A DNA stretch of 64,000 nt from assembly GCA_965285935.1 (NCBI GenBank), contig OZ260661.1:109430001-109494000 (forward strand). Direction: 5' to 3'. Shown here piece after piece: positions 35,801 through 38,800 of the stretch. How positions within the stretch are numbered: position 1 is the first letter of the stretch; every line of letters starts with the position of its first letter. The position numbers are program-made. This DNA comes from Ophelia neglecta (Eukaryota).

Positions 35801-38800
35801 CTTGGACATCGCCTGCCAGCGCGTCCATCCCGACAACAACAACAGTAATGTCTGGGCCAGCGAAGGTTTGCGAATGCTCTGCGCAAAAACCATGTTTGAC
35901 GCCATCTTTAACACAGTGTTCGGGCGCGCCGACGGGCACGCTTTCTCCAGTGGAATGGTGTACAAGAACTTTGACATTTTCCACAAGTACTTCAACTATT
36001 TCTGGCTGGGACTTCCCAAAGCTCTATTCCCACCAGCAATGAAGGCTTTAGGAGAGCTTCTGGTGATGCCTGGTTCTGAGGACCTTATGGGACGTTCTGA
36101 CCTTTCTGGCTACATCCGCACTGCTATCGACAGCCTGAGGGAGCAAGGTCAAACCGAGGCTGACATCAAGGGCCACAACCTGGTCTACCTGCACGTCAAC
36201 TACAACACCTTTCGCTTGGCCTTCTGGGTGCTCTCAAACCTTCTGGAGGACGAGAAAGCCACGGCTGCTCTGAAAGACGAGATCGACACTGCCATCAATG
36301 CCAGGCTCGACGAGAGTACCAACAGCGCACAGTTCACACTCAAGGACATCGAAGAACTCAAAGTTCTTGGTGAGTAATTATTTTCACACTTTAAGGTAAT
36401 AAAAGAACAATTGGTTCTGCAACGTGTTCATGGGCTGAGGGACTCCTTATTCAGCTGTGAAGTTAATGTTCTTGGTGGGAGGTATAATATCATATGTAAA
36501 AATAAGAAGCTACAGATACATTGAAAGCAAAATTCGTGTAATTTCCGCCGACAAAATGCCAGCTAAGCAATTTTTGTCCCACTTTTAAAATTCAATAGCA
36601 TTTTTTCAAAGCAATTCTTGTAAGGCAGCTCTTTTCCAATCATGTCCCCAAACGAACATATAATGATACTCCCACGCTAAGTACATAATAATCCAATTAA
36701 ATCTTATCCATTATAAGGTCTTGGGCTCAGCTTAATGTATTTATCATCCGTTTTTTGTCGAACATTGATGGTATATAAAGACTGTCTTGTTAATCACCAT
36801 GACACCCAAACTGCAATACTGGCTTGTTCAAACAACAAATAAAGTCGCAATTATATAAACTTGTATTTGATATATCACACAAGAGGTCGCATTACTGTTG
36901 TAGACTTTCTGCTTGTAAACAATACATATGTTCCTTTCTTTGGATAAAAAAAACAAGCCAGTGATATGCCATTCAAGACATTAATGTGTTTTACTGTGTG
37001 CCTTTCAAAAGAACAATTCATTTGGTTTCTTGTTACTGGCAAACACTTTCCTTATGAAGAGAAAAACGTTGGTGACATCAGCGGCTGTCATGTAGATAGA
37101 AACTAGTTCAACATGCGTGGGCTTCCCCTAACAACGTGGTAGCTAACCCATTTATCGCTCGTCTTTCAGACTCCATACTGCAAGAGACAATGCGTCTATC
37201 CAGTGGCGTCTTCATGGTGCGCTACATCCAGGAAGACAAAGAATTCATAACTAGCGAAGGCAAGGCTCACTTGATGAGAGCCGGAGACAGAGTCGCCATC
37301 TATCCACCAGCCATACACAAAGACCCAGAAATATTCGAGGATCCATTGGTGAGTCACTCTACTACCAGTTTGTTTATGTGTCTGTTCAGTTATGATCCAT
37401 ATACATCTACTGTAACAATCGTAACATCGTTTTTAACTAATGTTTCTTTTTTTTCACCAGGAGTTCAAGTATGACCGGTTCGTGAACAAAACTTTCTACA
37501 AGAATGGGAAGGCTATCAGTCACCCAGTGATGGCTTTCGGTTCTCTCTGTCCGGGAAAACGATACGCTCAAGCCCAGCTGAGATGGTTCGTCATGGAGAT
37601 GTTCACGCGGTTCGAGATGAGACTGCAAGATGGTGAGCATGCGCAGTATGCCTACCAATACCATGGCCATGAGGTACTGCCGCCCGTGAGAGATGTGAAC
37701 ATTGACTTCCGAACGATAGACAACGCGCCCCATTTACAGCTGTTGACTGATCTGTGAGCAAACACACCCCAATTACGTCAAGTGGCGAGACACGCAGGAA
37801 ATGCAAGCCATACAGAGGCGGGGTCTCAATAGATTTGGCTACCTCAAAATGAAATGGTAGGGCACACCTTTGATCCTTGAATTGCTTGAAACTGGATGAA
37901 GCCTTTTATCTGCCACGGGAGACGCTCTTTGCGCACGAAATTTCGGGTCGCAACCGTCCACAAAGACCTTTGTTTAGTGTATTTAGACTATTTTGGTATC
38001 ACGATATACATACTGTATAATCGGTATTACGATATACGTATATATAATCACTAATGGAGTTTGGGCGCAATGACTGGTTTCATTTGCCCCGCAGCTCCCT
38101 ATCACCCTTCATAAAGTATATTTATGTTCTAAGAGAGAATTGAATGCTGAAATATACGGTGCTCAAATTGCTTAAAATGAAAATTTATAATGAATAATGA
38201 TATTGTNNNNNNNNNNNNNNNNNNNNNNNNNNNNNNNNNNNNNNNNNNNNNNNNNNNNNNNNNNNNNNNNNNNNNNNNNNNNNNNNNNNNNNNNNNNNNN
38301 NNNNNNNNNNNNNNNNNNNNNNNNNNNNNNNNNNNNNNNNNNNNNNNNNNNNNNNNNNNNNNNNNNNNNNNNNNNNNNNNNNNNNNGACATATAATTTTA
38401 AAATTAATTCGTCTCTTAAGCACTAGTAATGGTCCTGGGCGTATTCGTTCTAGTTTCCCCATTCGCCAATATTATTAGAGAGTTTTGGATCACGGTTATT
38501 TCTTTAGTCATATTGAGGACACACATTCATAATTTTGAATGAACGAATCGCTATGTTGTATTCATTTACTGCAATGAGGCAATGTTTGCATTAAGATGTT
38601 CTCTTTCCCTGACTCTGACTTGATGGAGTAGAGATAATATTGCCAGCTCAGGGGTGACAGAGCGAAAGAGAGCGAGATAGGATGCAAGGTATATGTGTGT
38701 GAGTCAAATTGTACTTCCAAAGATCTGCTTCTCCAAGTTGATCGATAATGATGTTATTGTTTAATAAGGCAAAAGTGCTCCTTATAAACATGTACATAAC

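What the first reader, a model, noticed from the sequence alone, without database searches (positions are those of the whole stretch)
37530..37568. Heme-ligand loop shortened by three residues (FGSLCPG)
Seen: MAFGSLCPGKRYA, with only 3 residues between F and the thiolate Cys422. Established: the P450 signature FxxGxxxCxG has 6, as in CYP7A1 (PFGSGATICPG). This loop shields the Fe-S bond, tunes redox potential and forms part of the reductase-docking face. CYP74 enzymes, which use no reductase, also have an altered loop (an insertion). The deletion is a clean in-frame 9 nt in mid-exon of an otherwise intact gene, so decay or a splice mis-call is unlikely. Inference: altered redox-partner use. 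The PROSITE P450 heme pattern should miss this protein.
Basis: partly seen in the sequence, partly recalled or inferred. Interest (0 to 1): 0.72.

Follow-up and report, generated by a model that had tools for sequence, protein, structure and literature searches.

The report
Short heme loop marks CYP3067 family
The three-residue-shorter heme-binding loop is real, but it is the conserved hallmark of a cytochrome P450 family (CYP3067) already named in a marine worm and shared by worms, molluscs and their relatives, so this gene is an ordinary new member of an unstudied family.

Summary
Observation confirmed. Window 37530-37568 (+) reads MAFGSLCPGKRYA in the last exon of an intact four-exon, 490-codon P450 gene, with Cys at residue 422. 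Every solved clan-7 relative (CYP7A1, CYP8B1, prostacyclin synthases) aligns with a 3-residue gap just before the Cys.

It is neither an assembly error nor private to this locus. The short loop occurs in 10 of 10 hits, in 33 of the 33 hits that reach the loop, and in 32 of 63 hits of the exhaustive search (all of the top 27). Named carriers are annelids, nemerteans, bivalves, gastropods, an octopus, a brachiopod and a flatworm. Short-loop proteins form one side of a branch (100/100) with the loop columns removed.

It is already in print: Capitella teleta CYP3067A1 is tabulated as 'AFGS...LCPG', and its gaps are called 'peculiar' (PMC4229089). P0001 is that protein.

The membrane anchor and an I-helix Asn-Thr like CYP7A1/CYP8B1 fit an ordinary microsomal monooxygenase. 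Verdict: new member of a known kind, modest interest.

The parts
33732..33820 (+). Exon 1: start codon, 29 codons of hydrophobic membrane anchor plus 2 nt; donor CC|GTAAGT
   Evidence: Found by a scan for ATG + hydrophobic stretch + phase-2 donor. Aligns without gaps to the N-termini of Capitella CYP3067A1 (59% identity) and Paralvinella (48%). Donor checked.
35462..36369 (+). Exon 2 (908 nt): RRGEPP hinge through the I-helix to ...LKDIEELKVL; acceptor ...ttgttacag|G, donor CTTG|GTGAGT
   Evidence: Sequence. Pfam p450 E=1e-11. PDB best hit CYP8B1, E=5.9e-23. 160 homologues at E<=1e-10.
36204..36209 (+). I-helix Asn-Thr codons (AAC ACC) within HVNYNTFRLAFW
   Evidence: Aligned to N-T of CYP8B1 and to N-A of zebrafish PGIS. 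Family conservation N 37/38, T 33/38.
37170..37348 (+). Exon 3 (179 nt): K-helix and beta strands; acceptor ctttcag|AC, donor TTG|GTGAGT
   Evidence: Pfam p450 E=5.1e-06, profile positions 325-381.
37184..37195 (+). K-helix ExxR (E-T-M-R)
   Evidence: Read. Family conservation E 37/38, R 38/38.
37461..37757 (+). Exon 4: meander FKYDRF, Cys-ligand loop, L-helix, C-terminus and stop TGA (37755-37757); acceptor tcaccag|GAG
   Evidence: Pfam p450 E=0.0017 for this exon alone, 17.6 bits, below the 22.8-bit whole-protein cut-off. PDB hits CYP8B1, CYP7A1 and PGIS.
37530..37568 (+). The finding: MAFGSLCPGKRYA, a Cys-ligand loop 3 residues shorter than FxxGxxxCxG; Cys codon TGT at 37548-37550

Best explanation
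The window, from an annelid-like genome and not human, carries an intact four-exon orthologue of the clan-7 cytochrome P450 family CYP3067. The three-residue-shorter Cys-ligand loop (F-G-[S/T]-[L/I]-C-P-G in place of F-G-x-G-x-x-x-C-P-G) is a fixed trait that defines this family. It arose once, before the named spiralian carriers (annelids, nemerteans, molluscs, a brachiopod, a flatworm) diverged, and has been kept by purifying selection. All of that is shown by the data. Inferred from here on: the protein is a working ER-anchored heme-thiolate enzyme with a CYP7A1-like fold. It most likely still acts as an oxygen-activating monooxygenase on a sterol-like or other lipid substrate, with electrons from the usual microsomal reductase. 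The deletion removes the second glycine and its neighbours on the upstream arm of the Cys pocket, which moves the shielding Phe from position -7 to -4. The Cys-Pro-Gly and the start of the L-helix, which by recalled textbook knowledge supply the amide hydrogen bonds to the thiolate, are left untouched. In canonical clan-7 relatives position -2 is S/T/H/R rather than uniformly basic, so this arm may be less constrained in this clan, which would make the deletion tolerable. Whether it shifts redox potential or partner docking is unknown. My confidence that this is a CYP3067 orthologue and that the loop is a conserved family trait is about 0.95. My confidence that it is still a reductase-dependent monooxygenase is about 0.55. 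The single confidence value given for this explanation (0.7) is a blend of the two.
For: Motif and gene model. P450 identity exon by exon. Clan-7 affinity: PDB phmmer best hits are CYP8B1, CYP7A1 and PGIS; the Foldseek search with the CYP3067A1 model gives CYP7A1 TM 0.81/0.85, PGIS 0.82/0.86, CYP8B1 0.79/0.85, and CYP51 only 0.65-0.73. Family identity: P0001 (CAPTEDRAFT_221271) has ESFR 344, FKYDR 400, AFGSLCPG 424 and NT 286, the positions tabulated for CYP3067A1. The window's exon 2 is 61% and exon 4 is 65% identical to it. Conservation: 10/10; 33/33 loop-reaching proteins among the 34 of 120 listed hits that are >=400 aa; 32 short, 26 canonical and 5 without a loop among 63 exhaustive hits, with the top 27 all short. 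Single origin: 40 short rows against 9 canonical rows form one branch at 100/100 with the loop columns dropped, and the inner topology roughly follows the species tree. Catalytic landmarks in 38 family members: Cys 38/38, Gly-3 38/38, Phe-4 36/38, ExxR Arg 38/38, I-helix N 37/38 and T 33/38. The AlphaFold2 model of CYP3067A1 has pLDDT 92.6 and pTM 0.91. The Capitella paper reports EST support for expression.
Against: No member of the family has been characterised biochemically in the library searched ('CYP3067' is found in one paper only). Heme binding, the 450-nm CO peak, substrate and reductase use are therefore all inferred. The Capitella authors themselves wrote that whether the gene is fully functional 'may be questioned'. 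The model's only low-confidence structured block is the loop itself (residues 421-430, mean pLDDT 69), so the loop geometry is not established. The canonical control dips there too (47), so this says nothing either way. Thr287 is replaced in 5 of 38 members, and divergent members read C-P-A or C-I-G. dN/dS could not be computed because no DNA of eukaryotic relatives was available. The window's own spliced protein was never analysed as a whole.
Confidence: 0.7

Rival explanations
1. One reading: the truncated Cys pocket changes how the heme is reduced. CYP3067 enzymes would then no longer depend on the microsomal reductase. For example, they might rearrange lipid hydroperoxides or endoperoxides as prostacyclin synthase (CYP8A1) and CYP74 do, or use a different partner.
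For: Prostacyclin synthase is in the same clan and is as close in fold as CYP7A1 (TM 0.82/0.86) and nearly as close in sequence. One source names the octopus member 'prostacyclin synthase-like', but that is only an automatic name. The loop forms part of the proximal face, and CYP74 also has a changed loop length (both recalled, not tested). The deletion is strictly conserved, as expected if it is functionally important.
Against: The I-helix keeps Asn-Thr as in the monooxygenase CYP8B1, whereas zebrafish PGIS has Ala at the Thr position. Thr is kept in 33 of 38 members. The N-terminal anchor and Pro-rich hinge of a microsomal P450 are retained. The change is a deletion, not the CYP74-type insertion. 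No tool here measures reduction or docking.
Confidence: 0.2
2. The protein is conserved but no longer a heme-thiolate catalyst. It would be a heme-poor or non-catalytic P450-fold protein, such as a lipid binder.
For: The canonical signature is broken in every member (0 of 38 match FxxGxxxCxG). The Capitella authors questioned its functionality. The loop is the least confident structured part of the model.
Against: Cys is kept in 38/38, the C-P-G turn in 35-36/38, the ExxR Arg in 38/38 and the meander D-R-F in 38/38. Conservation of exactly the heme-ligating residues over such distances is hard to explain without heme. The pLDDT dip is also seen in the canonical control.
Confidence: 0.05
3. Artefact or decay: nine bases lost in assembly, a mis-called splice site, or a young pseudogene.
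For: None found. An assembly gap (N run 38207-38386) lies about 450 nt downstream of the stop codon, outside the gene.
Against: The motif is 69 nt inside the exon. The frame is open over all four exons with GT-AG at each intron. The same short loop is present in independent assemblies of many species.
Confidence: 0.02

Closest known systems
CYP3067A1 of Capitella teleta (Dejong & Wilson 2014, PMC4229089; protein CAPTEDRAFT_221271 = P0001)
   Same: Same short loop (AFGSLCPG), same FKYDR meander, same E-x-x-R position and same I-helix N-T. 61% identity over exon 2 and 65% over exon 4. Similar N-terminal anchor. Groups with the window inside the annelid set.
   Different: A different annelid species. 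The window's nearest named relative is Paralvinella palmiformis (67% over 296 columns), and an unnamed database fragment is 90% identical. The paper treated the gap as an oddity of one gene, whereas here it is seen across phyla.
Vertebrate CYP7A1 and CYP8B1 (sterol 7-alpha and 12-alpha hydroxylases, clan 7)
   Same: Best sequence and fold matches. They share the RRxxEPP hinge, the I-helix N-T...FW and the FKYDR meander.
   Different: They carry the full-length loop FGSGATICPG / WGSGVSICPG. Identity is only 25-28% in the Foldseek alignment. They lie on the other side of a 100/100 branch. No substrate is known for CYP3067.
Prostacyclin synthase (CYP8A1)
   Same: Same clan, equally close in fold, and it aligns over the same exons.
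   Different: Full-length loop (WG..NLCPG / WGAGHNHCLG). Ala aligns with the window's I-helix Thr in the zebrafish enzyme. It works without a reductase (recalled).
CYP74 (allene oxide synthase and relatives)
   Different: Its change is an insertion rather than a deletion (recalled). It did not appear among the sequence or fold matches listed.
CYP39B1 of Capitella and the canonical-loop clan-7 protein of Owenia (P0036)
   Same: Clan-7 genes in the same phylum, which shows that annelids hold both loop types.
   Different: Full-length loops: PFGGGRFQCPG and YGGGSSMCPG. They fall outside the short-loop branch.

Membership tests
Cytochrome P450 superfamily (Pfam PF00067) | Match to the p450 profile | tested here: met
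   The exon-2, exon-3 and exon-4 stretches were scanned separately (exon 1 was found later and not scanned). They hit collinear parts of the profile: 10-193 (44.8 bits), 325-381 (26.0 bits) and 382-441 (17.6 bits, below the 22.8 cut-off on its own). The joined protein was not scanned.
Cytochrome P450 superfamily | Proximal Cys ligand followed by x-G and the L-helix | tested here: met
   C-P-G at 37548-37556. Cys is kept in 38/38 family members. The L-helix starts 3 residues after the Cys in the model.
Cytochrome P450 superfamily | Canonical signature length F-x-x-G-x-x-x-C-x-G | tested here: not met
   The window has F-G-S-L-C-P-G. 0 of 38 family members match, against 9 of 12 canonical relatives.
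Cytochrome P450 superfamily | K-helix ExxR and meander (PERF-like) motif | tested here: met
   ETMR at 37184-37195 and FKYDRF at 37464-37481.
Cytochrome P450 superfamily | Binds heme and gives a 450-nm reduced-CO peak | not testable with these tools
   Needs expressed protein.
P450 clan 7 (CYP7/CYP8/CYP39) | Clusters with CYP7, CYP8 and CYP39 rather than with other clans | tested here: met
   The six best PDB sequence matches are all CYP8B1, CYP7A1 or PGIS, with CYP51 far behind. The fold search gives the same order. The Capitella paper places CYP3067A1 with the CYP7s. My tree held no P450s from other clans, so it does not test this.
CYP3067 family | More than 40% identity to a named member (more than 55% for the subfamily). 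This nomenclature rule is recalled. | tested here: met
   61% over exon 2 (99% of the query covered) and 65% over exon 4 to CYP3067A1. Whole-protein identity was not computed because the exons were not joined. A formal name is given only by the nomenclature committee.
CYP3067 family | Three-residue gap in the heme loop (AFGS...LCPG) | tested here: met
Reductase-independent clan-7 isomerase (prostacyclin-synthase type) | Loss of the I-helix Thr used in oxygen activation | tested here: not met
   The window has N-T. Its Thr aligns with Ala of zebrafish PGIS and with Thr of CYP8B1. Thr is kept in 33/38 family members.
CYP74-type P450 | Insertion in the Cys-ligand loop (recalled) | tested here: not met
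   The loop is shorter, not longer.

The most novel reading that the evidence does not exclude
CYP3067 is a spiralian-wide, single-origin P450 family whose truncated Cys pocket, with the shielding Phe moved from -7 to -4 and the second Gly lost, has changed the chemistry of the heme-thiolate centre. The change could be a shifted redox potential, or a switch to reductase-independent rearrangement of lipid peroxides. If so, it would be the first natural 'short-pocket' P450 class, the counterpart of the long-pocket CYP74.
Probability: 0.15. Interest if true: 0.65.

Novelty: new member of a known kind. Interest (0 to 1): 0.33.

Why it matters
For this window it matters little: the gene is one more orthologue of a named family. 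For the family there is a small, real point. The only printed remark found treats the gap as a peculiarity of one Capitella gene and asks whether that gene works. The data here show that the gap is invariant in every loop-reaching member examined, arose once, and is kept together with all the heme-ligating landmarks in at least five phyla. That argues the enzyme works and that a P450 can function with a Cys pocket three residues short. It makes CYP3067 a cheap natural test case for how the upstream arm of the Cys pocket sets redox potential and partner docking. No substrate or activity is known.

Tried and rejected
1. Using AlphaFold confidence as evidence that the short loop is structurally odd. 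The CYP3067A1 model dips to pLDDT 69 at residues 421-430. The control, a canonical-loop fish CYP7A1 folded with a 12-sequence alignment, dips to 47 at its own loop. The control's alignment is shallower and its overall pLDDT is lower (79.9), so it is not a perfect match, but the dip is clearly not specific. I dropped the argument.

2. The PROSITE argument. The recalled pattern misses the window, but it also misses 10 of 12 canonical clan-7 proteins, so it does not discriminate.

3. An alternative placement of the gap, upstream of the F-G so that the conserved Pro at -8 would match the canonical P-F. I rejected this because MAFFT and HMMER both align F-G with F-G/W-G, and canonical relatives from a diatom and an amoebozoan also have a Pro three residues before F-G.

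4. The taxon of the most divergent short-loop branch. A search with P0072 returned only its own cluster, so that branch stays unplaced. The sample behind it was not sought.

5. Literature searches:
- The motif strings gave 0 papers.
- 'CYP7A1-like', 'P450 7A1-like' and 'CYP7-like' gave 0 papers.
- Terms for loop deletion gave 2 unrelated papers.
- 'clan 7' with mollusc terms gave nothing beyond the two CYPome papers.
- One search was badly framed, since generic taxon words met the threshold, and it counts for nothing.
- The cnidarian CYPome passages say nothing about this loop.

6. dN/dS was not possible. No DNA of eukaryotic relatives is reachable, because the only open contig collection holds bacteria and archaea.

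7. A first scan for exon 1 with strict end-dinucleotide rules found nothing. A relaxed scan found it.

8. The Rfam and tRNA scans of the window found nothing.
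Full report
**1. The observation**

Window 37530-37568 on the + strand reads ATG GCT TTC GGT TCT CTC TGT CCG GGA AAA CGA TAC GCT, which is MAFGSLCPGKRYA. Three residues separate the Phe from the Cys, where the usual P450 signature FxxGxxxCxG has six.

I searched the exon carrying the motif on its own against the sequences of solved structures. The six significant P450 hits are all clan 7: CYP8B1 (7lyx, E=6e-08), CYP7A1 (3dax, 3sn5), zebrafish prostacyclin synthase (3b98) and human prostacyclin synthase (3b6h, 2iag). 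In the five alignments printed, the query has a 3-residue gap between F-G and the residue before the Cys. One example is 'mafg...slcpgkrya' against 'MPFGSgatICPGRLFA'.

**2. The gene**

The window's G+C content is 35-43% across 4-kb blocks, and it has one N run at 38207-38386. I left that run as it is; it lies downstream of the gene. The gene has four coding exons on the + strand:

| Exon | Coordinates | Content |
|---|---|---|
| 1 | 33732-33820 | 29 codons of hydrophobic anchor plus 2 nt |
| 2 | 35462-36369 | hinge to I-helix |
| 3 | 37170-37348 | K-helix region |
| 4 | 37461-37757 | meander, Cys loop, L-helix, stop TGA |

All three introns are GT...AG. The lengths add up to 89+908+179+294 = 1470 nt, or 490 codons.

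Exon 1 aligns without gaps to the N-termini of the annelid orthologues, at 59% identity to Capitella. The exon-2, exon-3 and exon-4 stretches each hit Pfam p450 in collinear parts of the profile. ExxR (ETMR), the meander FKYDRF and an I-helix ...NYNTFRLAFW are all present.

No tool, script or note received the joined protein. All whole-protein analyses used database orthologues instead. What this leaves open is a whole-protein Pfam score, a whole-protein identity and a fold for the window's own product.

**3. Not private to this locus and not an artefact**

*Homology search with exon 4.* A search for longer proteins gave 10 hits at E<=0.001 among 17 candidates. All 10 carry F-G-[S/T]-L-C-[P/T]-G. 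The named ones are Capitella teleta, Lamellibrachia satsuma, Paralvinella palmiformis and Owenia fusiformis (annelids), Lineus longissimus (a nemertean) and Mya arenaria (a bivalve).

*Homology search with exon 2.* This gave 160 hits at E<=1e-10 among 1246 candidates, of which 120 were listed.
- 34 of the 120 are at least 400 aa. 33 of these reach the loop and all 33 are short (23, 10).
- The other one, P0161, ends before the loop.
- The 86 shorter hits are mostly single-exon fragments that do not reach it.
- New named carriers include Tubulanus; the bivalves Argopecten, Ruditapes, Mytilus, Dreissena and Sinanodonta; the gastropods Haliotis, Patella, Lottia, Littorina, Batillaria, Gigantopelta, Nucella and Babylonia; Octopus sinensis; and the brachiopod Lingula anatina.

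*Exhaustive phmmer search with exon 4.* This ran against 1.84 billion cluster representatives and gave 63 hits.
- 32 have the short loop, 26 the canonical loop, and 5 show no loop. Of those five, three are fragments that start after the loop, and two long proteins match only through short repeated stretches.
- The 27 best hits are all short. The first canonical one is rank 28.
- Look-ups named further short-loop carriers: Aplysia californica and the flatworm Macrostomum lignano. Canonical hits were named as a second Owenia protein, a diatom, an amoebozoan and fish CYP7A1 and CYP7B1.

**4. One origin**

I built trees of 49 rows. These were 39 full-length short-loop database proteins, the window's exon 2 alone, and 9 canonical-loop proteins. 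I left out all fragments, and P0030 and P0060, whose clusters are represented by P0072 and P0073.

The short-loop rows form one side of a branch with SH-aLRT 100. In a careful search with the loop region (alignment columns 627-660) removed, support is ultrafast bootstrap/SH-aLRT 100/100, and all 200 bootstrap trees examined need only one change. The aligned loop shows 'FG---xLC' in 39 of 39 short-loop rows and 'FGxGxxxC' in 9 of 9 canonical rows.

Within the branch, annelids and nemerteans group together, and the molluscs fall into bivalve, gastropod and cephalopod sets, as expected for vertical descent. The window sits among the annelids, nearest Paralvinella (67% over 296 columns).

Caveats:
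- The tree holds no P450s from other clans and its root is not established, so 'clade' strictly means one side of a branch.
- Several canonical rows are on long branches.
- Three divergent short-loop rows have no known taxon.

**5. Already described**

I read passages of Dejong & Wilson 2014 (PMC4229089) with the find mode. They may list further motif details.
- Table 2 lists CYP3067A1 with the heme loop 'AFGS...LCPG' at residue 424 and the I-helix '....NT' at 286.
- The text states there was 'a gap in the motif in CYP3067A1'.
[quoted passage not shown] - It says the gene clusters with the CYP7s.

P0001 has the four motifs at exactly the tabulated positions, so P0001 is CYP3067A1. A full-text search for 'CYP3067' finds only that paper. 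The motif strings find no paper, and neither do 'CYP7A1-like', 'P450 7A1-like' or 'CYP7-like'. So within the library searched, the gap is in print for one species. I did not find its conservation across phyla stated anywhere.

One correction to the paper. Against CYP8B1 the I-helix differs by a single-residue gap, not four, with N-T aligned to N-T.

**6. What it most likely does**

The alignment of 38 family members (A1) keeps the heme-thiolate landmarks:

| Position (P0001 numbering) | Conservation |
|---|---|
| Cys429 | 38/38 |
| Gly426 | 38/38 |
| Phe425 | 36/38 |
| Leu428 | 36/38 |
| Pro430 | 35/38 |
| Gly431 | 36/38 |
| Pro421 | 37/38 |
| ExxR Glu | 37/38 |
| ExxR Arg | 38/38 |
| Meander D-R-F | 38/38 |
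| I-helix Asn | 37/38 |
| I-helix Thr | 33/38 |

AlphaFold2 on CYP3067A1 with this alignment gives pLDDT 92.6 and pTM 0.91. Foldseek puts the model closest to CYP7A1 (TM 0.81/0.85), prostacyclin synthase (0.82/0.86) and CYP8B1 (0.79/0.85), with CYP51 next at 0.65-0.73.

The gene keeps a membrane anchor and the RRxGEPP hinge. Its I-helix Thr aligns with Thr of CYP8B1 and with Ala of zebrafish prostacyclin synthase.

From this I infer, but have not shown, a working ER-anchored heme-thiolate enzyme. It is most likely still an oxygen-activating monooxygenase on a sterol-like lipid.

The deletion removes the second Gly and its neighbours on the upstream arm of the pocket and brings Phe from -7 to -4. 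The C-P-G turn and the start of the L-helix are intact. By recalled textbook knowledge, these donate the amide hydrogen bonds to the thiolate. Canonical clan-7 relatives have S, T, H or R at position -2 rather than a uniformly basic residue. That may have made this arm easier to shorten, which is again an inference.

**7.

'Altered redox-partner use' remains possible but has no support from these data. The only structural hint I had was a pLDDT dip to 69 at residues 421-430. It failed its control, because a canonical fish CYP7A1 model dips to 47 at its own loop.

The PROSITE remark is true with the pattern as I recall it, but it also fails for 10 of 12 canonical clan-7 proteins.

**8. Verdict**

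- The window's gene is a new member of a known kind.
- What is modestly new here is the breadth and single origin of the short loop, which argues against the published doubt about function.
- Interest is about 0.33.
- The boldest reading not excluded is that the short pocket changes heme chemistry or reductase dependence. I put that at about 0.15.

**9. Unchecked**

- No eukaryotic DNA collection was available, so dN/dS, read support and synteny stayed unchecked.
- The supplements of the Capitella paper were not seen.
- The taxa of the unnamed divergent short-loop proteins are unknown, and I did not seek them.

Noticed in passing
window 43067-43528: A tandem array with a 21-nt period. It was reported as 15 overlapping 168-nt copies at 64-88% identity to the reference copy, about 460 nt in all.
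   Followed up: no
window 54719-55293 and 56868-57743: A direct duplication spaced about 2.15 kb apart. It comprises a 267-nt pair at 100% identity, 300-nt copies at 71-96%, and a 68-nt pair containing a long poly-C tract. ORF pieces rich in G-runs and P-runs at 7688-8191(-), 26281-26921, 43669-44061(-), 51093-51452, 52597-53115 and 57048-57590(-) probably reflect similar homopolymer-bearing repeats.
   Followed up: no
window 19734-19812, 46782-46860, 47070-47148; 23925-24019 and 63827-63921; inverted partners 14927-15000 and 10235-10295: Short dispersed repeats of 60-95 nt at 63-85% identity, in both orientations. They look like small interspersed or MITE-like elements.
   Followed up: no
window 38207-38386: A run of 180 N about 450 nt downstream of the P450 stop codon.
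   Followed up: no
whole window: The P450 is the only evident gene in 64 kb. No other stop-to-stop ORF of at least 110 aa looks protein-like (none of them was searched). There were no Rfam matches at gathering score and no tRNA genes. Genes with small exons would have been missed.
   Followed up: partly
database proteins P0003 (Lamellibrachia, 645 aa) and P0036 (Owenia, 923 aa): Both public gene models are much longer than a P450. P0003 has about 155 extra N-terminal residues ahead of the membrane anchor. P0036 matches the exon-4 query only near its C-terminus (residues 829-918 of 923), so roughly 400 residues precede a P450-sized region. These are probably merged or over-extended annotations.
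   Followed up: no
database protein P0035 (Macrostomum lignano) and P0027, P0072, P0073: Divergent short-loop members vary the turn after the Cys (C-P-A, C-I-G). The flatworm protein has a further 2-column gap just after C-P-A-A.
   Followed up: no
window 36204-36209 and PMC4229089 Table 2: The paper shows a four-position I-helix 'gap' for CYP3067A1. Against solved CYP8B1 the I-helix differs by one residue only, with N-T aligned to N-T. The I-helix gap therefore looks like an effect of fitting to the [A/G]GX[D/E]T[T/S] motif.
   Followed up: partly
database fragments P0074-P0079 and similar: Many unnamed hits are single-exon ORFs that read through into the intron just after ...K[VI]L. This suggests the exon 2/3 boundary is conserved in related genomes. 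P0074 is 90% identical to the window's exon 2 and is its closest relative seen.
   Followed up: partly
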